The notes under the pieces: generated by a model
Database searches by the model: none
Seen by the model: only the letters and a program-made list of their open reading frames with translations
Told to the model about the DNA's origin: nothing
Position numbers and translations under genes: made by a program
From: Acidobacteriota bacterium
GTDB lineage: Bacteria; Acidobacteriota; Thermoanaerobaculia; Gp7-AA8
DNA: 52,830 nucleotides
Assembly: GCA_025463165.1 (NCBI GenBank)
Contig: JAOBAU010000113.1
Location: 1 to 52,830, forward strand
Direction of reading: 5' to 3'
Shown here: in pieces, positions 1-18,149 of the stretch
Layout: each line of letters starts with the position of its first letter
Position numbering within the stretch: position 1 is the stretch's first letter

Positions 1-1033
1 CGGCCTTGAAGCAGGCGTGGGTCATCAGGTGGAACACGCCCGAGGCATAGGCTTTGGTGCCCACGCCGATGAACATGAAGCCGAGCTGCGAGACGGTGGA
101 GTAGGCGAGGACTTTTTTGATGTCCCACTGCCGGATGCCGATCGTCGCGGCGAAGAGCGCGGTACAGGCGCCGACGATGGCGACGACCGCCATCGCCGTC
201 GGCGAGAGGCGATAGAGGACGTTCGAGCGGACGATCATGTAGACGCCGGCGGTGACCATCGTCGCGGCGTGGATGAGTGCGGAGACCGGAGTCGGGCCGG
301 CCATGGCGTCAGGCAGCCAGACGAAGAGAGGAATCTGCGCCGATTTGCCGGTGGCGCCGAGGAAGAGCAGGAGACAGATGGTGGTGATGAGCGCCGGCGC
401 GAGATTTCCATGTGCCGCGATCTGCGTGACTTTCGCGAAGTCGACCGTGCCGAAGTTCGCGAGCATCAGGAACATGGCGATGAGGAAACCGAAGTCGCCG
501 ATGCGATTGACGATGAACGCTTTCTTGCCGGCTGCCGGCGCGTAGCCGGTCTCGTAATAGAAGCCGATCAGGAGATAGGAACAGAGTCCGACGCCTTCCC
601 AGCCGACGAACATGAAGAGATAGCTGGAGCCGAGGACGAGGATGAGCATCGCGGCGAGGAAGAGATTGAGGTACGCGAAGTAGCGCGCGTAGCCGTCTTC
701 ATGCGCCATGTAGCCGGCGGAGTAAAGATGGATCATGAAGCCGATCCAGGTGACGATCATCAGCATGACGACGCTGAGCGGATCGAGCTGGAACGCGATG
801 TCGGCGGAGATGCCGCCGGAAGAGATCCAGTTGTAAACGACGTCGAGGTGACGCTCGCCGCCGGGATACGCGTGGTGATACTGCACGACGGCAATGGTCG
901 CGAAGACCGCGGCAAAAAACGTCGACGCCAGCGCCACCGCGGTGACGAACGCCTTGCCGGCCTTCCTGCCGACGAGCCCGTTCACCAGGAAGCCGATGAA
1001 CGGGAGGAGGGGGATTAGCCAGAGTTTGTCCAT
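1..1033 (-). CDS. nuoL: NADH-quinone oxidoreductase subunit L (partial, runs off window start)
   Basis: Not in ORF track because truncated. Minus-strand ATG at 1033 reads MDKLWLIPLLPFIGFLVNG..., later GKSAQIPLFVWLPDAMAGPTPVSALIHAATMVTAGVY and DIKKVLAYSTVSQLGFMF, hallmark NuoL/ND5 motifs. Confidence 0.97.
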   Translation of the reverse strand, partial: MDKLWLIPLLPFIGFLVNGLVGRKAGKAFVTAVALASTFFAAVFATIAVVQYHHAYPGGERHLDVVYNWISSGGISADIAFQLDPLSVVMLMIVTWIGFMIHLYSAGYMAHEDGYARYFAYLNLFLAAMLILVLGSSYLFMFVGWEGVGLCSYLLIGFYYETGYAPAAGKKAFIVNRIGDFGFLIAMFLMLANFGTVDFAKVTQIAAHGNLAPALITTICLLLFLGATGKSAQIPLFVWLPDAMAGPTPVSALIHAATMVTAGVYMIVRSNVLYRLSPTAMAVVAIVGACTALFAATIGIRQWDIKKVLAYSTVSQLGFMFIGVGTKAYASGVFHLMTHACFKA

Positions 1034-11217: not shown

Positions 11218-13407
11218 ATGCCCCGGATCCTCTTCGCTCTCCTCTTCCTCGCCACCGCCGCTTACGCCGATACCGCCGACGTTTCCGTCGCGCTCAACAC
11301 GGTCCCGAGCGTCGTCACCGGCGGGCTCTATCCGGTCACGGTCTCGCTGCACAACGCCGGACCTGACGCCGCGGCCGGCGCACGCGTCCGCATCGAAATG
11401 ACGGATCGACGATTCGTGCCGCTCGACAAATATCCGAGCTGTCTCGTTGATGGCGACGCCATCCTTTGTTACGCATACGACTTCGCGGCAGGAGAGACGC
11501 GCGACTTCGCGCTGACGTTCACCGCGCACGACTCGCCAACGCCGATTTCCATTCGCGCGACGGCGATCACGACGAACGATCCGAATCCGGCGAACGACTC
11601 CGCCGGCGCAACCGTCAACGTCTTCGCCGCCGTCGATCTGCATCTCTCCGTCGACGTCTATCCGAGTCTGCAGCCGCGTCAACAGAGTCAGGTGCGATTC
11701 GACGTCCGCAATTTGTCGTCGACGCCGGCCGGACCGTTCAGCGCTCTCTTCACCTTTCCGGCGACGCTGACGGTGACGAGCTTTCCCGATCACTGCGATC
11801 AACTCGATTCGGCAAACTACCGATGCGATTTCGCCGGTCTGTCGTTCGGCATCGTCGCCGCCGCGTTTCAGGTCGTGCCCGATGACGGCAGTCATTCGGC
11901 GACGGTGAGCGGGTCGGTCGATTTCAACGGCGACGCCAACCCGTCCGACAATCGCGTGACGCTCGACGTGCCGGTGTATGACGTCGCGCAGCTGGTGGCG
12001 TCGATCACCTCGCCCGATCGGCTCGACGAATCGCGCACCGCCGCCATTCGCTATCACATCGAAAACAGGTCCGACGTTGCCGCGACGAACGTCGTCGTCG
12101 AGACGTTCGCCGGCTTCACTTCGACGATCGCCGGTTTCACCGCCGATGGCTGGTCGTGCGTGCCGAAAGGGAGCGAGCCCGGTCTGCGCTGTACCACGCC
12201 GACGCTCGCGCCGCGCGAAGCGCGCGACATCGTAATGAACGTCCTCTTCCCGACGCGCGAGCTGCGCGCGCAACTCTTCGCGAGCGTGACGCAAACGACG
12301 CCGGCCGAGTTTCGCGCTCTGCCGAACTTCACCACGGTGAACGGCGTCTTCTATCGCGTCTTCAACGTCACGAATGCGCTCGACCTCGGCGCCGGCTCGC
12401 TGCGCGCGGCCATCGACGCCGCGAACGCGCAATGCGGCAACGATCAGCTCAACATCCCATGCAAGGTCGCGTTCCAGGGCTCGCTCACGATCGCGCCACG
12501 CTCGCCGCTGCCGATCGTCACCGCTCCCGACTTCGCGATCGATGGCGCAGCGCAAACGTTCATCGACGGCGCGCTCGCCGGCGACACTGACGGGCTGCAC
12601 ATCAACTCGACGATCGCCGACGTACGAGGCCTCGCCATCCGCAATTTCGCACGCAACGGTCTGCTGCTCGAACGCGGAACCGCGCAGGTTCCGACGCCGA
12701 ATCAGGAGCAGCGCATCGTGCAGAATCTCCTCACCGTCAACGGCCTGCGCGGGCTGATGGCGCTCCGCTTCCAGGGCACGATCGCCGCGAACATCATCGG
12801 CAACAACGCGCGCAGCGCGATCTTTCTCTATCCCGCAACGAATACGACGATCCGCGACAACCGCATCGGCGTCGCGGCGGACGACTCGCCGCTGCCGAAC
12901 GGCGCGAGCGGCATCTTCATCGGACCGCAGTCGAACAACATCACGATCGAGAACAACGTCATCGCCAACAACAGCGACTTCGGCATCGCCGTCGCGCGTC
13001 CGGTGACGATCAACATCGCCGCGAATCGCTTCATCAACAGCGGACAGCGCGCCATCGACGTCGGCCTCGATGGTCCATCGCCCTCCGAACAGACCGCGCC
13101 CGCGCCGTCGATCCTTTCCGCTCGGTACGACGCCTCGAGCGGCGACACGATCATCGAAGGCTCCGGCGTCGCGCGCGCCTATCCGCGGCGCGAAACGCTC
13201 TACCTCTACGCGAACGCCGCCGACGTCGCGGAAGGACATCGCTTCCTCGGCACCACGACGGTCGATCGCGACGGCCGCTTCGTCTTCCGCGTACACGACG
13301 ATCTGCGCGGAACGTTCGTCGCTGCCGCCGGCGTGATCCTCACTGACTTCGGCGACATCGCCTGGCGGAACTCGACGGAGCTCAGCGCGCGGCTGCGAGT
13401 GGACTGA
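11218..13407 (+). CDS. Secreted protein with DUF11-like Ig domains and C-terminal right-handed beta-helix
   Basis: Signal peptide; HNAGPDAA, DPNPAND, DANPSDN motifs; VTNALDLGAGSLRAAI; Asn-rich IRDNRIG/IENNVIANN repeats. Confidence 0.75.
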   Translation: MPRILFALLFLATAAYADTADVSVALNTVPSVVTGGLYPVTVSLHNAGPDAAAGARVRIEMTDRRFVPLDKYPSCLVDGDAILCYAYDFAAGETRDFALTFTAHDSPTPISIRATAITTNDPNPANDSAGATVNVFAAVDLHLSVDVYPSLQPRQQSQVRFDVRNLSSTPAGPFSALFTFPATLTVTSFPDHCDQLDSANYRCDFAGLSFGIVAAAFQVVPDDGSHSATVSGSVDFNGDANPSDNRVTLDVPVYDVAQLVASITSPDRLDESRTAAIRYHIENRSDVAATNVVVETFAGFTSTIAGFTADGWSCVPKGSEPGLRCTTPTLAPREARDIVMNVLFPTRELRAQLFASVTQTTPAEFRALPNFTTVNGVFYRVFNVTNALDLGAGSLRAAIDAANAQCGNDQLNIPCKVAFQGSLTIAPRSPLPIVTAPDFAIDGAAQTFIDGALAGDTDGLHINSTIADVRGLAIRNFARNGLLLERGTAQVPTPNQEQRIVQNLLTVNGLRGLMALRFQGTIAANIIGNNARSAIFLYPATNTTIRDNRIGVAADDSPLPNGASGIFIGPQSNNITIENNVIANNSDFGIAVARPVTINIAANRFINSGQRAIDVGLDGPSPSEQTAPAPSILSARYDASSGDTIIEGSGVARAYPRRETLYLYANAADVAEGHRFLGTTTVDRDGRFVFRVHDDLRGTFVAAAGVILTDFGDIAWRNSTELSARLRVD

Positions 13408-13459: not shown

Positions 13460-14014
13460 ATGCAGGAAGTGCACGTCAAGGCAGTTCCGGTGAATGGGCT
13501 TTGTCAGTTCGTCGCGCAGGAGCTGACTCCCGAGCAGCTTCGCGCCGCGACCGAGAAGATGGGAGCGGACAGCCGGTGGTTCACCGGACATCTCCTCGCG
13601 CACGAGATGGTTCCGCTGGCGCTCGTGAATCGCTTCACCGCGCTCTGTGCCGCGGAAAAGAAAGAACCGGTGCGGCAGTTCGCGAAACGCGCCGGCCGCT
13701 TCGGCGCGGCGCTCGGCGTGAAGAGCGTCTACAAGTTCATCCTCGCCGTGCTGTCGATCGAGTACGTGTTGAAGAAGGCGCCGTTCATGTGGACGCGCGT
13801 CTACGACGGCGGCACGATGGACGTCGACGCGACGGACAAACACGCGCGCATTCGCATCAGAGATTTTCCCGCGCACGAGGCCGGCTGCGGCCGCATCACC
13901 GGCTGGTTCGAAGTCGTCGGCGAGCGCGCCGGGGCGAAGGACCTTCGCTGTTCTCACACGTCGTGCGCCGCCGAAGGCGCTACCGAATGCGTTTGGGACT
14001 TCGAATGGCGATGA
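13460..14014 (+). CDS. Hypothetical V4R/HNOX-like ligand-binding protein
   Basis: C-terminal GCGRITGW...SHTSCAAEGATECVWDFEW resembles V4R; GGAGG upstream. Confidence 0.55.
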   Translation: MQEVHVKAVPVNGLCQFVAQELTPEQLRAATEKMGADSRWFTGHLLAHEMVPLALVNRFTALCAAEKKEPVRQFAKRAGRFGAALGVKSVYKFILAVLSIEYVLKKAPFMWTRVYDGGTMDVDATDKHARIRIRDFPAHEAGCGRITGWFEVVGERAGAKDLRCSHTSCAAEGATECVWDFEWR

Positions 14015-14019
14015 CCCTT

Positions 14020-14101
14020 CGGTGCTGAGTGCTGAGTCCGTCGAAAACTGTCACGCAGTGTTTGCTTCGACGCAGCACTCAGCACTCGGCACTCGGCACC
14101 G
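14020..14101. repeat. Heptamer-array palindrome C with internal CGTCGAA/TTCGACG stem
   Basis: CGGTGCT GAGTGCT GAGTC ... AGCACTC AGCACTC GGCACTC GGCACCG. Confidence 0.9.
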
Positions 14102-14135
14102 GTTGCGCTAGTCTTTCCGGCCGGGGGTTTCTCGT

Positions 14136-14591
14136 ATGAAGAAGTACGTGTGGGCGTTGTCGCTCGTCCTTGCAACCGCGTGCGCCGCCATCAATGCGCA
14201 AAAAGCGCAGGCGGTGCGCGCCGATACCGGCGAGTTCCACAATCTCAAAGTCCTGCCGCAGAACATCACACGCGATCAGCTCATCGCCACGATGCGTTCG
14301 TTCACCCGCTCGCTCGGCGTGAAGTGCGATCACTGTCACGTCGCCAATCCGGAAGGGGCGAAGGAACACTTCGATTTTCCGAATGATGCGAAGCCTGAAA
14401 AGAATGTCGCACGCGTGATGCTGCGCATGACGAAGCAGATCAACGCCGACTACATCGACAAGATCAACGAGCAGGGAACGAACGTCACCTGCTATACGTG
14501 CCATCGCGGCCAGGTCACGCCGGAATCATCATTGCCGCCGCTTCCCGCGGGTCAGGGACAGGGCGCACCACCTCCGCAACCTCACGGTTGA
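14136..14591 (+). CDS. Periplasmic dihaem cytochrome c (short reaction-centre-cytochrome-like family)
   Basis: Signal peptide; NLKVL, SLGVKCDHCH, ARVMLRMTKQIN, VTCYTCHRG. Confidence 0.85.
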   Translation: MKKYVWALSLVLATACAAINAQKAQAVRADTGEFHNLKVLPQNITRDQLIATMRSFTRSLGVKCDHCHVANPEGAKEHFDFPNDAKPEKNVARVMLRMTKQINADYIDKINEQGTNVTCYTCHRGQVTPESSLPPLPAGQGQGAPPPQPHG

Positions 14592-14612
14592 TCGCTGCAA
14601 ATCGGGCGTAGA

Positions 14613-14638
14613 ATTCGTGCTCCTGATCGAGCACGAAT
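14613..14638. promoter_or_regulatory. 10-bp inverted repeat spanning from the -10 box to the sigma-factor start codon
   Basis: ATTCGTGCTC-CTGATC-GAGCACGAAT, overlapping TAGAAT (14609-14614) and ATG (14637). Confidence 0.5.
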
Positions 14639-15812
14639 GGCCCGTTACGAAGAACGCGATGACTCGTACGATCTCCTGAATCAATATCTTCAGGAGATCG
14701 CACGAATCCCGCGCCTCACACCCGAGCGCGAGCGCGAGCTCGGTCAGCGCGTGCAGCAGGAGAACGACAAAGCCGCGCTCGAAGAGCTGGTGAAATCGAA
14801 TCTCCGCTTCGTCGTCTCGTACGCGAAACGCTATCGCAACGCGCACGTCCTCTTCCTCGATCTGATCAACGAAGGCAACATCGGGTTGATCCACGCCGCG
14901 CGGAAATTCGATCCCGACAAGAACGTGAAGTTCATCACGTACGCGGTCTGGTGGATTCGCCAGTCGATCCTGCACGCGTTGTCGGAACAGGGCGGCGCGT
15001 TCCGTCTGCCGCCGAAGCGCGCGAACCTGATGTACCGGCTCGAGAAAGCGATCGGCACCGCGATGACGGAAGGGAATCACATTCCGACGGCCGAGGAGCT
15101 GGCGGTGGAGCTGGGTGTGACGGTGAAGGAAGTGCAGACGCTGATGCACGCCAACGCCGACAACTTCTCATTGAATGCGGAGCTCGACGACGAATCGCAC
15201 ACCGAGCTCGCCGACGTCATCGAGCAGACCACGATTCCGTCTGCCGATTCGGAGATGCAGGCGCAGTCGCGGCGCGAAGAATTGCTCGCGCACATGGCGG
15301 AGCTGACGCCGAAAGAGCGGCTCGTGCTGACGCTGCGTCACGGCGTCAGCGACAACGTCCCGAAACGAATCAACGAGCTCGCCGCGTTTCTCAATCGCGA
15401 GCCGGCGAACATCGTGTCGGTGCTCGAAGCGGCCGAGCAGAAAGTGTGCGAGACGATCGCCATCACGCGCAGCGAGCTCGCGCAGTTGTTGCTCTACACG
15501 AATCCGAACGTCCGCGCCGCGCGCACGTTCTGGTCGGAGCTCGGCGACATCGCCGAAGGCGTCACGCCGCAGATCGACTTCGCGCGCGTCGGCCAGCTCG
15601 AGTCGCTGAAGCAGCACGGCTCGGTGCAGAAGACGATCGATGCGCTGACGCTCGAAGAACGGACGATCCTGAAACTGCGCTACGGCGTCCTGCAGGATGA
15701 CGAGCTGACGCTGCGCGACATCGGCGAGATTCTCGGTCTTTCGCGCGAGCGCGTGCGGCAGATCGAGTCGCGCGCCGAGCAGAAGTGCCGCCGCAGCGTG
15801 CGGCGCCGCTGA
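14637..15812 (+). CDS. RpoD/RpoS-family sigma-70 factor lacking region 1.1, with duplicated region 4
   Basis: YLQEI (1.2), SNLRFVVSYAKRY, DLINEGNIGL, KFITYAVWWIRQSI (2), PTAEELA (3), TLRDIGEILGLSRERVRQIE (4.2). Confidence 0.93.
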   Translation: MARYEERDDSYDLLNQYLQEIARIPRLTPERERELGQRVQQENDKAALEELVKSNLRFVVSYAKRYRNAHVLFLDLINEGNIGLIHAARKFDPDKNVKFITYAVWWIRQSILHALSEQGGAFRLPPKRANLMYRLEKAIGTAMTEGNHIPTAEELAVELGVTVKEVQTLMHANADNFSLNAELDDESHTELADVIEQTTIPSADSEMQAQSRREELLAHMAELTPKERLVLTLRHGVSDNVPKRINELAAFLNREPANIVSVLEAAEQKVCETIAITRSELAQLLLYTNPNVRAARTFWSELGDIAEGVTPQIDFARVGQLESLKQHGSVQKTIDALTLEERTILKLRYGVLQDDELTLRDIGEILGLSRERVRQIESRAEQKCRRSVRRR

Positions 15813-15854
15813 TTTGTCACAAGCGGAAGTGCTGTTCGTGACGTAACTAGTCGC

Positions 15855-17456
15855 GTGACTACGCGCACTCTCGTCCTCATCTCTCTTCTTGCAGTCTCGT
15901 CCGCCGCGATTGCGCAGGACTATCGAATCGATGTCGATCGCGCGCACTTCGATGCCGCGACGGGCGCGCTCCCGGCGCACATCACCGTCACCAACGACAG
16001 CGATGCGCCGATCAGCGGCGTGGAGCTCTTCTTCGCCGGACAGTTGGTTCACGCCGCGAGCGGAAGCGGCTGGACCTGCACGGAGAGTCGCAACCAGCCG
16101 ACGAAGTGCGACTTCGCCGGTACGTTCGCCGCCGGTGAGATCGCAACGGTCGACGCGATCGTCGTCTTCGCGCAGCAGCCTTCGCGCATCAGCGTTGACG
16201 GCAATCTCTTCTGGACGAACGCGGCGGGTCAGCGCACCTTCATCTCGCGGCGATTGCCGCTCGCGGTCTACAAGGCTTTCGTCGTGACGCGGACGGCTGA
16301 CAGCGGCAGCGGCTCGTTGCGTGACGCGATCGTGGCGCTCAACGCCGACGCTGTTTGCGCATCGCTGCCGTGCGGCATCGCGTTCAACTTCGCGCCGAGC
16401 GCCGACGAGAAGTGGCAGACGATTCACGTTCGGTCGGAACTGCCGGCGCTCACCGCCGCGGACGTCACCATCGACGGCGATTCACAGAGCATCTTCGCCG
16501 GCGACACGAATGCCGACGGCCCGGAAGTCGAGCTGCGCGGTGAAGGAGTCGCTGGCGATGGATTCGATTTCCGTTCCGCGGTCTCCGAAGTGCGCGGAAT
16601 GGCGATTGGCGGCTTTGGACGCAACGGCATTGCGCTCACGGTTCGCTTGCGCGAGCACGGCGTTTTTCGCTTTCTGCACAACTACCTCGGCACCGACGCC
16701 ACCGGTTCCAATGCCGCGCCGAACGGACTGCGCGGGATCTCGATCACCGGCGGTTACGTCGAAGGCGAGATCCGCGACAACGTGTTGAGTGGCAACGGAC
16801 GCAGCGGACTGTGGGTCTGGACGGAACAGTCTCCCGGCTTCCGTCTCGCGGAATCGATGAACGTGGCCGGCAATCGCGCCGGCCTGCAGGCGCATTCCGA
16901 CGCGCCGCTGCCGAATGGCGCGAGTGGCATGTTCTTCGGGCCCGCCGTCGACGGCGCTGCAGTTGAAGGAAACACGATCGCGTACAACCGCGACTTCGGC
17001 GTCGCCGTCGGTCGCGGCGCGCGACTGATGCGCGTGCGCGGAAACTCGATCGCGCACAACGGCGTCGGCGGCATCGACGTCGGTCTCGATGGTCCGACGC
17101 CGGCCGGCGTCGATGCGGAGTTCAGCGATGTGCCGGCGCCGCTGCTGCAGTCCGCGACGTACGACGCTGCCACGAACACGACCACGATCGCGGCGACGGT
17201 GCCGCCCAGCTTCTACTTCGTCATGAATCAGGTTGATTTCTATGTCAGCGAAACGCGTGAGCACGGCGACTACGCGGAAGGCGAGCGCTATCTCGGGACA
17301 TCGAAAACACAACCGGGAACGAATGTACGAACGCTGACGGTGCCGGGCGATCTGCGTGGCCGATTCGTCAGCGGCGTGACGTTCCGAACGCGCGACGCAG
17401 AGGGCTCGCTCCTCTACGACACCGGCGAACCGAGCAACGCGATCGAGGTGAAGTGA
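15855..17456 (+). CDS. Secreted beta-helix protein, paralogue of 11218..13407
   Basis: Signal peptide; shared motifs GSLR.AI, PLPNGASG.F.GP, IDVGLDGP.P, DLRG.FV. Confidence 0.75.
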   Translation: MTTRTLVLISLLAVSSAAIAQDYRIDVDRAHFDAATGALPAHITVTNDSDAPISGVELFFAGQLVHAASGSGWTCTESRNQPTKCDFAGTFAAGEIATVDAIVVFAQQPSRISVDGNLFWTNAAGQRTFISRRLPLAVYKAFVVTRTADSGSGSLRDAIVALNADAVCASLPCGIAFNFAPSADEKWQTIHVRSELPALTAADVTIDGDSQSIFAGDTNADGPEVELRGEGVAGDGFDFRSAVSEVRGMAIGGFGRNGIALTVRLREHGVFRFLHNYLGTDATGSNAAPNGLRGISITGGYVEGEIRDNVLSGNGRSGLWVWTEQSPGFRLAESMNVAGNRAGLQAHSDAPLPNGASGMFFGPAVDGAAVEGNTIAYNRDFGVAVGRGARLMRVRGNSIAHNGVGGIDVGLDGPTPAGVDAEFSDVPAPLLQSATYDAATNTTTIAATVPPSFYFVMNQVDFYVSETREHGDYAEGERYLGTSKTQPGTNVRTLTVPGDLRGRFVSGVTFRTRDAEGSLLYDTGEPSNAIEVK

Positions 17457-17459
17457 GCG

Positions 17460-17729
17460 CTATTGCTGCTTGTTGCGCAGACCCGCGGCGATCTCATCCA
17501 TCTTCGTCTGATGGAACTCGTTGACGAAGCGCTGCAGCTGTTCCTCGGGCATCGACGTCATGTCCGACGTGTAAACCTTCTTCAACGCGCCGGCGAGGTA
17601 GACCTTCGTCTCGACGCGCCACGCAGGGCGTGGAAAGAATTCGGTCTGGATCGTCAGTTTCTTCGTACCGACATCGAACGCATCGAGGCGTCCCATCGGC
17701 AACTCGCGGGGCGGAGCGACGTCGGTCAT
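17460..17729 (-). CDS. Hypothetical protein (89 aa)
   Basis: C-terminal part of ORF 17460..18062 from MTDVAPP; TACCAT 8 nt upstream; globular composition. Confidence 0.7.
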   Translation of the reverse strand: MTDVAPPRELPMGRLDAFDVGTKKLTIQTEFFPRPAWRVETKVYLAGALKKVYTSDMTSMPEEQLQRFVNEFHQTKMDEIAAGLRNKQQ

Positions 17730-17750
17730 GTTGCGATATGGTAGACGAAG

Positions 17751-18149
17751 ATGCGGCTCGAGCATTTGACCGATGATGAGGAAGACCACTGGCGGGGGGA
17801 GTTCGCGCAGGAGAACTGGATTTTCGGGGCGCTGCGACTCAGCATCACGCTCCCCGAATTCGCCGGCGGCGTGCCGTCGCTGCGCGACATGCACTTCGGT
17901 TATTACCTGCAGCCGCTGCATCTGAACGCGGACGATCGCGAAGATCTGCCGCGCAAGCTCGCGTACGTCGTCGCGCGCCGTAAACCGCCGCTCGACTTTC
18001 TCGAGCTCGTCGGCGCGGGGCTGCGCATTCCGCACTGCTTTCCGCAGGGCTTCACGCTGCACAGCGTCCTGCGCATCACGCTTCAGGAACTGCGTCGCCT
18101 GCCGCTCCGCGATGACAGCGGCCGCGTCGCCGCACGGGAAGAATCATGA
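17751..18149 (+). CDS. Hypothetical protein, first gene of ABC operon
   Basis: Stop overlaps next ATG (ATGA); TATGGT 8 nt upstream. Confidence 0.7.
   Translation: MRLEHLTDDEEDHWRGEFAQENWIFGALRLSITLPEFAGGVPSLRDMHFGYYLQPLHLNADDREDLPRKLAYVVARRKPPLDFLELVGAGLRIPHCFPQGFTLHSVLRITLQELRRLPLRDDSGRVAAREES

What the first reader, a model, noticed from the sequence alone, without database searches (positions are those of the whole stretch)
15303..15788. Sigma-70 factor with two tandem region-4 domains, the first with a rewritten recognition helix
Seen: LTPKERLVLTLRHGVSDNVPKRINELAAFLNREPANIVSVLEAAEQKV (15303-15446) aligns without gaps over 48 aa to LTLEERTILKLRYGVLQDDELTLRDIGEILGLSRERVRQIESRAEQKC (15645-15788), with a 66-aa linker between them. 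The copy in the normal position has lost the -35-reading RERVRQ motif, while the displaced C-terminal copy keeps it. Established: region 4 binds the beta-flap, the -35 element, activators and anti-sigmas. Inference: the first copy may hold the flap or act as a decoy while the second reads DNA further upstream, implying a non-standard promoter geometry. I know of no described sigma factor with this architecture.
Basis: partly seen in the sequence, partly recalled or inferred. Interest (0 to 1): 0.75.

Follow-up and report, generated by a model that had tools for sequence, protein, structure and literature searches.

The report
Sigma factor with tandem region-4 domains
An alternative RNA polymerase sigma factor of soil Acidobacteria carries a degenerate extra copy of its promoter-reading domain plus a folded spacer ahead of the working copy, a conserved layout for which I found no published description and which may change how promoters are measured.

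Summary
ORF 14637-15812 (+) is a 391-aa sigma-70-family factor (regions 1.2, 2, 3). Residues 223-270 and 337-384 align without gaps: 14 of 48 identical, and 0 of 100,000 shuffles reach the score. Profile tests show the first copy is a true region-4 homologue. It keeps the 4.1 helix but has lost the DNA-reading helix; the last copy is canonical (RERVRQ kept).

The "66-aa linker" is a conserved, confidently folded helical module of sigma4-unit size. No sigma4 signal could be detected in it.

The gene is not an artefact. All 120 listed homologues are 386-396 aa. Two soil assemblies from other studies span it without indels. All 15 listed variant sites in the insert are third codon positions.

The insert was found in 8 of 401 genomes sampled from the phylum, all in one order. 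A separate true RpoD exists in the genome.

Moduliflexota sigma factors carry three clear sigma4 units, and one unnamed protein carries 6-7. Tree, AU test and unit similarities indicate independent origins. In all three lineages the first unit best keeps the 4.1 signature, and only the last keeps the HTH.

Best reading (inferred): the first copy docks on the core enzyme, and the tethered last copy reads the -35 element. No published description was found. I rate it a new variant of a known kind.

The parts
14637..15812 (+). Gene for the 391-aa alternative sigma-70-family factor with a C-terminal sigma4 array
   Evidence: ORF listed. Pfam finds r1.2, r2, r3 and r4, all above their cut-offs. Soil contigs from two other studies span it without indels.
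14670..14768 (+). Region 1.2 (aa 12-44)
   Evidence: Pfam Sigma70_r1_2, 39.1 bits against a cut-off of 22.
14787..14990 (+). Region 2 (aa 51-118)
   Evidence: Pfam Sigma70_r2, 68.2 bits. It is one of the two most conserved parts of the protein, at 0.16 bits mean entropy over 48 sequences.
15033..15248 (+). Region 3 (aa 133-204), followed by the region 3.2 linker
   Evidence: Pfam Sigma70_r3, 53.1 bits. The 3.2 stretch has low pLDDT, as expected for an extended linker.
15282..15452 (+). sigma4a (aa 216-272): the first, degenerate region-4 copy. Its 4.1 helix is conserved; its HTH is rewritten and variable.
   Evidence: hhalign gives 98.4% probability against a canonical region-4 profile. My own region-4 HMM scores 15.8 bits. 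Pfam makes a partial hit. Entropy is 0.28 bits in the 4.1 helix and 1.42 bits in the HTH. AF2 places helices at 225-235, 245-252 and 256-274.
15453..15641 (+).
   Evidence: AF2 pLDDT block means are 76-91, with helices at 278-287, 294-301, 315-327 and 329-335. Eleven columns are invariant across 8 diverse genomes. No sigma4 signal was found by Pfam or hhalign. Fold search was inconclusive, with best Z 3.8.
15642..15809 (+). sigma4c (aa 336-391): the canonical region 4, with the RERVRQ recognition helix
   Evidence: Pfam Sigma70_r4 scores 61 bits on this part alone. My own HMM scores 67.7 bits. HTH entropy is 0.15 bits. Its closest match is the region 4 of P0196, a canonical relative in the sister group on the tree, at 29/46 identities.
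17463..17729 (-). Conserved ~89-aa protein of no known family. It is usually encoded directly next to the sigma gene and is a possible partner (inference).
   Evidence: tblastn finds it adjacent to the sigma gene in 6 of 8 relatives' loci. In 4 of them it lies immediately downstream on the same strand; in 1 (L019) upstream on the same strand; in 1 (L012), as in the window, on the opposite strand. No Pfam family.
14609..14614 (+). TAGAAT, a -10-like hexamer 22 nt before the sigma start codon
   Evidence: Present at the same relative place in the window, L013, L014, L015 and L016. L017 has TACAAT. None was found in L018 or L019. No conserved -35-like partner at any spacing from 12 to 69 nt.

Best explanation
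The gene encodes an alternative sigma-70-family factor. It is not the housekeeping one. Its C-terminal region 4 has been expanded into a three-unit array:
- sigma4a, a true but degenerate region-4 copy;
- a conserved helical middle module of the same size;
- sigma4c, a canonical region 4.

Shown:
- The array is real, translated in frame and under purifying selection.
- It is conserved through one order of Thermoanaerobaculia.
- Comparable arrays arose independently in at least two other lineages.
- In all three lineages the first unit is the one that best keeps the region-4.1 signature. Only the last unit keeps the DNA-reading helix-turn-helix.

Inferred mechanism:
- sigma4a follows region 3.2 at the canonical distance. 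It takes the core-docking place at the beta-flap / RNA-exit side of RNA polymerase and no longer reads DNA.
- sigma4c, tethered through the middle module, reads a TTGACA-like -35 element with the unchanged RERVRQ helix.
- The -35 reader would then not be fixed rigidly by the flap. This predicts promoters with a longer or more variable -35/-10 distance, or dependence on a partner protein.
For: Architecture:
- establish the two homologous copies.
- The genome has a true RpoD elsewhere (TIGR02393, 410.6 bits, above the 354 cut-off). This protein reaches only 170.9 bits in that search.

Reality and selection:
- All 120 listed homologues are 386-396 aa and 79-99% identical.
- The insert alone finds 142 proteins at E<=0.001 among 323 candidates.
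- Contigs from two other studies span 14600-15794/15828 with 39 and 55 substitutions and 0 gaps.
- 35 of the 40 listed variant sites, and 15 of 15 in the insert, are third codon positions. 48 further sites were not shown.

Position:
- In alignment A1, sigma4a aligns without a gap to the 4.1 helix of the canonical ~280-300-aa relatives. The 114 extra residues follow it.

Complementary conservation over 48 sequences:
- sigma4a 4.1 helix 0.28 bits entropy, against 1.42 for its HTH.
- sigma4c HTH 0.15 bits, against 0.57 for its 4.1 helix.

Split HMMs built from 78 canonical region-4 domains, in bits:
- 4.1 half: Acidobacteria first unit 17.7, last 15.1. Moduliflexota first 31.4, middle 5.8, last 9.9. 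P0304 first 32.3, last 15.1.
- HTH half: Acidobacteria first -0.9, last 52.2. Moduliflexota first -0.9, last 58.1. P0304 first 12.7, last 51.5.

Independent origins:
- On region 1.2-3 columns each clade is monophyletic (SH-aLRT 99-100), but the two are not sisters.
- The AU test rejects a joint clade (p 0.0005, lnL difference 68.8).
- Each last unit is most similar to the region 4 of a canonical relative from its own neighbourhood on the tree: 29/46 (score 141) to P0196 and 27/52 (score 138) to P0216, against 19/45 (score 106) to each other.
- The best stored relatives of P0304 are single-sigma4 sigmas.

-35 reading:
- The sigma4c recognition helix matches that of solved SigA chains, rervrqie against rerirqie.
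Against: - No experiment or model here shows which unit contacts the beta-flap.
- In this clade the last unit is a complete region 4 (67.7 bits against 87-88 for canonical relatives). Its 4.1 half scores almost as well as that of the first unit (15.1 against 17.7 bits), so it could dock on the flap itself. The polarity is clear only in Moduliflexota and P0304.
- No -35-like element at any fixed spacing (12-69 nt) was found upstream of the conserved TAGAAT before the sigma gene in 6 loci. The best column sum was 13 of 36. That promoter need not be read by this sigma.
- Expression is not shown. The RNA run laid holds only short pieces over conserved parts, which may belong to other sigma genes.
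- The AU test group was named after the first tree had been seen.
Confidence: 0.4

Rival explanations
1. Looped-out regulatory insert. sigma4c occupies the ordinary place on the beta-flap and reads an ordinary -35 element. sigma4a and the middle module form a 114-aa accessory module between region 3.2 and region 4, sitting at the RNA-exit side. There it would modulate promoter escape or bind a regulator, for instance the conserved ~89-aa neighbour.
For: - sigma4c is a full canonical region 4, including a 4.1 half at 15.1 bits.
- The insert evolves faster than the rest: 53-96% identity against 79-99% for the whole protein. Entropy is 1.0-1.2 bits. Accessory modules often behave this way.
- A small conserved gene lies beside the sigma gene in 6 of 8 relatives' loci.
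Against: - The 4.1 helix of sigma4a is among the most conserved stretches of the protein (0.28 bits) and lies exactly where a canonical 4.1 helix lies.
- In Moduliflexota and P0304 the last unit has a poor 4.1 half, 9.9 and 15.1 bits against 31-32 for the first unit. That is hard to reconcile with the last unit doing the docking.
- In P0304 the loop would have to hold about 320 residues.
Confidence: 0.33
2. Built-in decoy or autoinhibitor. The degenerate sigma4 units mimic region 4. They either bind factors that target region 4 (anti-sigma-type proteins, activators) or fold back on sigma4c or sigma2 to keep the free sigma inactive until it meets core enzyme or a signal. This resembles the way sigma-like domains are used in partner switching.
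For: - A region-4 fold without DNA-reading residues is kept under selection.
- A conserved unknown small protein is encoded next to the gene.
- From general knowledge, not tested here: degenerate sigma-like domains serve as decoys in PhyR-type regulators.
Against: - No anti-sigma gene was recognised nearby. The neighbours have no Pfam family.
- Nothing in the data shows an intramolecular contact.
- The Moduliflexota version sits behind dnaJ and an hspR-like gene, with no homologue of the small protein detected by tblastn at E<=1.
Confidence: 0.15
3. Functionless relic of a tandem duplication (the extra units merely being tolerated), or an assembly or annotation artefact.
For: The HTH of sigma4a and the middle module are the most variable parts of the protein.
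Against: - Length is kept at 386-396 aa in all 120 listed homologues.
- The insert is present in 8 of 401 sampled genomes, spanning two families of one order.
- There are invariant core residues across 33-58% identical middle modules.
- 15 of 15 listed insert variants are at third codon positions.
- Two contigs from other studies show no gaps.
- The same layout has arisen more than once.
Confidence: 0.04

Closest known systems
Group 2/3 sigma-70-family factors of about 280-300 aa (RpoS / SigB / cyanobacterial group-2 type). The nearest relatives here are P0196, P0202, P0199 and P0210.
   Same: They share regions 1.2, 2, 3 and 4. Identity is 48-51% outside the insert. The recognition helix carries the same RERVRQIE motif. 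The best NCBIfam hits are RpoD/SigA-family and RpoS models.
   Different: These relatives have a single region 4. The window protein has 114 extra residues (a degenerate region 4 plus a helical module) between region 3.2 and the canonical region 4. All equivalog and subfamily cut-offs are missed.
Moduliflexota sigma factors of 386 aa (Candidatus Moduliflexus flocculans P0340, Candidatus Vecturithrix granuli P0350)
   Same: The overall layout and length match: r1.2-r2-r3 followed by three units of about 56 aa. The first keeps the 4.1 signature and the last keeps the HTH.
   Different: - All three units are still recognisable region-4 domains in 9 of 9 proteins tested; here the middle one is not.
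- They are not sister to the window's clade (AU p 0.0005).
- The gene context differs: dnaJ, an hspR-like gene, then sigma, in 2 of 2 loci read.
P0304, an unnamed 703-aa protein from public read assemblies
   Same: It has r1.2-r2-r3 followed by a tandem array of region-4 units, with the same polarity: the first unit is best in the 4.1 half and the last is best in the HTH half.
   Different: It has six HMM-detected units plus one more judged by eye, and an N-terminal extension. Its nearest stored relatives are other single-sigma4 sigmas. It was seen on only 2 contigs.
ECF sigma factors with fused C-terminal regulatory extensions (ECF41/ECF42 type; PMC3426412, search listing and abstract only) and PhyR-type sigma-like decoy domains (recalled)
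   Same: The shared concept is an extra domain attached to, or derived from, a sigma domain that modulates sigma activity. Degenerate sigma-like folds can serve protein binding rather than DNA reading.
   Different: Those extensions lie after sigma4 and are not sigma4 copies. PhyR is a response regulator, not a sigma factor. Neither has tandem region-4 units between region 3.2 and the DNA-reading region 4.

Membership tests
Sigma-70 family of RNA polymerase sigma factors | Region 2 (core binding, -10 recognition) present | tested here: met
   Pfam Sigma70_r2 scores 68.2 bits against a cut-off of 24, over aa 51-118. VIA-align gives Z 15 to sigma-S and SigA chains.
Sigma-70 family of RNA polymerase sigma factors | Region 4 with a helix-turn-helix for the -35 element | tested here: met
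   Pfam Sigma70_r4 scores 70.1 bits for the whole protein and 61.1 bits on aa 327-391 alone. The RERVRQIE helix aligns to SigA chains.
Sigma-70 family of RNA polymerase sigma factors | Passes NCBI's family-level model | tested here: met
   TIGR02937 (superfamily model) scores 128.3 bits against a cut-off of 42.9.
Group 1 primary sigma factor (RpoD/SigA) | Reaches the RpoD equivalog-domain score | tested here: not met
   TIGR02393 scores 211.9 bits and 170.9 bits in the genome search, against a cut-off of 354. A different locus (C344) scores 410.6 bits in a 665-aa open frame.
Group 1 primary sigma factor (RpoD/SigA) | Region 1.1 and a long N-terminal part | tested here: not met
   Region 1.2 starts at residue 12. 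No Sigma70_r1_1 hit appears among the 18 families at E<=1.
RpoS (stationary-phase sigma of Proteobacteria) | Reaches the RpoS equivalog score | tested here: not met
   TIGR02394 scores 202.9 bits against 378.7. NF004207 scores 199.4 against 394.
ECF (group 4) sigma factors | Only regions 2 and 4, with no region 3 or 1.2 | tested here: not met
   Regions 1.2 and 3 are present above their Pfam cut-offs.
Sigma factors with a tandem sigma4 array (proposed here; not a described family) | Two or more region-4 homologous units after region 3 | tested here: met
   sigma4a scores hhalign probability 98.4% against a canonical region-4 profile. My own HMM makes two hits in 8 of 8 clade members tested.
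Sigma factors with a tandem sigma4 array (proposed here; not a described family) | The middle unit is also sigma4-derived | tested here: inconclusive
   For: the module has sigma4-unit length (114 aa = 2 x 57) and a helix order like a sigma4 unit. Against: hhalign probability is <=1.2% to any sigma4 profile, split HMMs score about -1.4 bits, and the fold search peaks at Z 3.8 to winged-helix regulators.

The most novel reading that the evidence does not exclude
Tandem sigma4 arrays define an unrecognised class of sigma factors that has evolved repeatedly (3 units in a Thermoanaerobaculia order, 3 in Moduliflexota, 6-7 in another lineage). In this class the two jobs of region 4 are split between copies: the first copy docks on the beta-flap, and the last reads the -35 element at the end of a protein tether. 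The number of units would then set, or relax, the -35/-10 distance, giving a promoter geometry not covered by current promoter models.
Probability: 0.3. Interest if true: 0.85.

Novelty: new variant of a known kind. Interest (0 to 1): 0.66.

Why it matters
Region 4 is the part of sigma that fixes the -35 reader on the beta-flap. That fixing sets the classical 17-bp promoter spacing. Region 4 is also the main target of activators and anti-sigma factors.

A conserved, repeatedly evolved expansion of this domain, with loss of DNA reading in the first copy, would be a natural experiment in uncoupling core docking from DNA reading. If the tether model holds, promoters of these sigmas would be invisible to standard -35/-10 searches in Acidobacteria, which are abundant in soil. 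The unit number (3 to 7) could act as a molecular ruler.

Even under the more conservative insert model, this would be the first lineage-specific domain I know of (recalled) between region 3.2 and region 4, at the RNA exit channel.

Tried and rejected
- Complex prediction. I submitted the beta-flap part of RpoB from genome G070 (255 aa, alignment of 7) with sigma4a of the same genome (72 aa, alignment of 8). The result was no verdict (scores 0.13 and 0.15 against a mark of 0.32; controls not run). It says nothing either way.
- rpoB in the window's own genome. It was not found with TIGR02013 or PF00562; the MAG is 96% complete. A relative's pair was used instead.
- Middle module. Pfam found nothing at E<=10. 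hhalign against sigma4, r2, r3 and r1.2 profiles gave probability <=1.2%. Folded alone it reached pLDDT 70. Foldseek PDB found nothing at E<=0.001. VIA-align wide gave best Z 3.8 to MarR-type winged helices, below any meaningful level. The ESM Atlas gave 0.81, which is chance level. Its origin therefore stays open.
- Whole-model fold search. It only returned full-length sigma factors and is uninformative for the repeats.
- Promoter geometry. I scanned 6 sigma-upstream regions, anchored on the conserved TAGAAT/TACAAT, for a TTGACA-like hexamer at spacers of 12-69 nt. No spacing stood out (best 13 of 36). The sigma-70 consensus scan of 13900-16100 found 0 sites.
- Expression. The one RNA run laid (X20) holds only 4 short pieces over conserved parts. 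That is no evidence of transcription.
- AU test on the 142-row tree. It did not finish in two 288-s runs. It was replaced by a 41-row subset.
- The search for related loci with the middle-module alignment. The single-protein scan of genome contigs gave 2 loci.
- Earlier notes of this scan. None near the locus.
- Literature. Six full-text searches found no paper describing tandem region-4 domains in a sigma factor. Passages read in 10.64898/2026.10.08.757525 and PMC11119718 mention domain architectures, and the latter a class for 'duplicated essential domains'. In the passages seen there was no sigma4 array. Their supplementary tables could not be opened and might list such architectures.
Full report
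**What is there.** The coordinates of the finding lie in one ORF, 14637-15812 (+), 391 aa. Translation reproduces the two quoted peptides (aa 223-270 and 337-384) with 66 residues between them. Pfam finds region 1.2 (aa 12-44), region 2 (51-118), region 3 (133-204) and region 4 (best stretch 334-385; two stretches counted), all above their cut-offs. NCBIfam places the protein nearest RpoD/SigA-family and RpoS models, but below every equivalog or subfamily cut-off. Only the superfamily model TIGR02937 passes. The genome has a genuine RpoD elsewhere (contig C344, TIGR02393 410.6 bits, 665-aa frame), while this gene reaches 170.9 bits. It is therefore an alternative sigma factor with regions 1.2 to 4.

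**Is the repeat more than chance?** Yes.
- The ungapped register gives 14 of 48 identities and a BLOSUM62 score of 56. None of 100,000 shuffles reaches either value. It is the only off-diagonal register in the protein scoring above -4.
- BLASTP gives E 1e-5.
- Profiles of the two segments, built from 41 family members, align at 93.8% probability.
- I built a region-4 HMM from 78 canonical relatives of 270-300 aa. It hits the first copy at 15.8 bits (i-E 4e-7, profile positions 4-35) and the last copy at 67.7 bits. As a profile-profile comparison, the first copy matches canonical region 4 at 98.4% over 53 columns.
- In deeper-branching clade members the first copy is matched over nearly the whole domain: L010 at 34.0 bits and L009 at 28.5 bits.
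- Split HMMs show what has been lost. The 4.1 half scores 17.7 bits in copy 1 and 15.1 in the last copy. The HTH half scores -0.9 against 52.2 bits (medians over 48 sequences).

**The "linker".** AlphaFold2 with a 42-sequence alignment gave mean pLDDT 73, but block means of 80-94 across residues 211-350. It predicts three consecutive helical units:
- helices 225-235, 245-252 and 256-274;
- helices 278-287, 294-301 and 315-327 (plus 329-335);
- helices 339-349, 359-366 and 370-390.

The distance between the starts of the first and last copies is 114 aa, which is two units of 57. The middle unit has 11 invariant columns across 8 genomes that are only 33-58% identical there. It has no detectable sequence similarity to region 4 or to any other sigma region. 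A 13-residue loop replaces the 3-residue HTH turn. Folded alone (pLDDT 70) it finds nothing significant in the PDB. It is a folded, conserved module. Whether it is a decayed sigma4 stays open.

**Reality, selection and distribution.**
- All 120 listed homologues are 386-396 aa and 79-99% identical. Where named, they are called Thermoanaerobaculia or Acidobacteria.
- The insert alone retrieves 142 proteins at 53-96% identity, so it evolves faster than the rest of the protein.
- Contigs from two soil metagenomes of other studies span the gene with 39 and 55 substitutions and no gaps.
- 35 of the 40 listed variant sites, and 15 of 15 in the insert, are third codon positions. 48 more sites were not shown.
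- In a sample of 401 genomes of the phylum, the insert is found in 8: family f1 6 of 7 plus the window's genome, and family f2 1 of 1, both in the same order. It was not found in the other 97 families searched.
- Five genomes without the insert, one from the window's own family (G216) and four from other families of the class, hold only RpoD-like frames of 570-670 aa at 34-39% identity. One of these five, G024, is unpublished, and this statement rests partly on it.
- In the 50%-identity library the only full-length partners are P0191 (69% identity) and P0215 (36%). The next relatives are canonical 280-300-aa sigmas that lack the 114 residues.

**Other sigma4 arrays.**
- P0215 belongs to a Moduliflexota clade (Candidatus Moduliflexus flocculans, Candidatus Vecturithrix granuli). 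Pfam counts three Sigma70_r4 stretches in it (97.9 bits). My HMM finds three units in 9 of 9 members tested, for example 216-269, 272-321 and 329-374.
- I scanned 149 stored representatives. 127 have one region-4 hit and 12 have two or more.
- Of those 12, four are the window family and its fragments (P0191, P0193, P0195) and P0215.
- Three are frames of 2,087-7,852 aa with widely spaced hits.
- Four look like fused or weakly matching cases.
- One, P0304 (703 aa), has six tandem hits, plus a seventh unit judged by eye. Pfam confirms four stretches at 126.9 bits.

**Independent origins.**
- On region 1.2-3 columns, the Acidobacteria and Moduliflexota clades are each monophyletic (SH-aLRT 99-100). 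Each is nested among different single-sigma4 relatives.
- The AU test on a 41-row subset rejects a joint clade (p 0.0005). The caveat is that the group was named after the first tree was seen.
- The last units are closest to the region 4 of a canonical relative from their own neighbourhood on the tree: 29/46 to P0196 and 27/52 to P0216, against 19/45 to each other.
- The best stored relatives of P0304 are yet other single-sigma4 sigmas.

**How it probably works.** In all three lineages the first unit keeps the best 4.1 signature (17.7, 31.4 and 32.3 bits), and only the last keeps the HTH (52.2, 58.1 and 51.5 bits). Within the window's clade the conservation is complementary. Entropy is 0.28 bits for the first 4.1 helix, 1.42 for its HTH, 1.19 for the middle module, 0.57 for the last 4.1 helix and 0.15 for the last HTH.

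The first unit follows region 3.2 without a gap relative to canonical sigmas. In known holoenzyme structures (established knowledge), region 3.2 leaves the RNA exit channel right at the flap, where region 4.1 begins. I therefore favour a division of labour, at about 0.4:
- sigma4a docks on the core enzyme;
- sigma4c, tethered by the middle module, reads a TTGACA-like element with its unchanged RERVRQIE helix.

This predicts a longer or more flexible -35/-10 spacing.

The main rival, at about 0.33, is that sigma4c docks normally and residues 216-335 form a looped-out regulatory insert. In this clade sigma4c is a complete region 4 with a near-equal 4.1 score, which keeps this rival alive. A decoy or autoinhibitor role (0.15) and a neutral relic (0.04) follow. 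Nothing here tests flap binding or promoter geometry directly.

**Context.** The ancestral gene order in relatives is sigma, a ~89-aa protein, a 132-aa protein and two ABC exporter genes, mostly on one strand (L014, L017; partly L015, L018, L019). In the window and in the 96%-identical L012 the small gene is inverted. In the window only, a beta-helix gene (15855-17456) is inserted after the sigma gene. The small proteins have no Pfam family. The Moduliflexota gene sits behind dnaJ and an hspR-like MerR gene in 2 of 2 loci read.

**Comparison and novelty.** The protein is a member of the sigma-70 family. It is not a member of group 1, RpoS or ECF by their defining scores or regions. I found no published description of tandem region-4 domains in six full-text searches and in passages of two architecture papers. 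Supplementary tables could not be read. I rate it a new variant of a known kind: a recurrent sigma4-array architecture whose function is unknown.

Noticed in passing
window 15855-17456 (+): This is a 533-aa right-handed beta-helix protein gene directly after the sigma gene. It is absent at this place in L012, whose sigma is 96% identical; there the small conserved gene follows the sigma directly. It therefore looks like a recent insertion. A related DUF11 + beta-helix gene lies at 11218-13407.
   Followed up: partly
window 17460-18062 (-) and 17751-18149 (+): The 200-aa ORF listed on the minus strand is a chimera. Only its C-terminal ~89 aa (17463-17729) behave as a conserved protein. Its N-terminal half is the antisense of a conserved 132-aa gene on the plus strand, whose end overlaps the start of the first ABC exporter gene (18146). 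Neither small protein has a Pfam family. The Atlas lists Acidobacteriota 'hypothetical protein' clusters for the 89-aa one (score 0.96).
   Followed up: partly
window 14136-14591 (+): This is a 151-aa c-type cytochrome of the photosynthetic-reaction-centre cytochrome family (PF02276, 60.8 bits). It ends 45 nt before the sigma start. A homologue lies about 1.7-2.5 kb upstream of the sigma gene in L013-L016.
   Followed up: partly
window 14609-14636 and the same place in L013-L016: After the conserved TAGAAT comes a conserved pyrimidine-rich GCTCC-like stretch, a few bases downstream, before the start codon. It could be part of a leader or discriminator. I have no explanation for it.
   Followed up: no
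L038:2734-5639 and L040:3426-6161: In Moduliflexota-type contigs the three-sigma4 sigma gene directly follows dnaJ and an hspR-like MerR-family gene on the same strand. This hints at a heat-shock or stress role for that version.
   Followed up: partly
protein P0304 (703 aa): This sigma-70-family protein has an array of six (probably seven) diverged region-4 units after region 3. It was seen on 2 contigs, the longest 20.6 kb. The organism is unknown.
   Followed up: partly
protein P0230 (349 aa): This relative has an insert of about 60 residues inside region 4, between the 4.1 helix and the HTH (alignment A1). This region of the family seems prone to insertions.
   Followed up: no
genome G000 (whole): rpoB was not found with TIGR02013 or PF00562 in the window's own assembly (96.2% complete, 471 contigs). 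It is probably unassembled.
   Followed up: partly
window 13460-14014 (+): This 184-aa ORF has only a weak V4R-domain hint (16.9 bits, below the cut-off). It is conserved at 70% identity upstream in L014.
   Followed up: no
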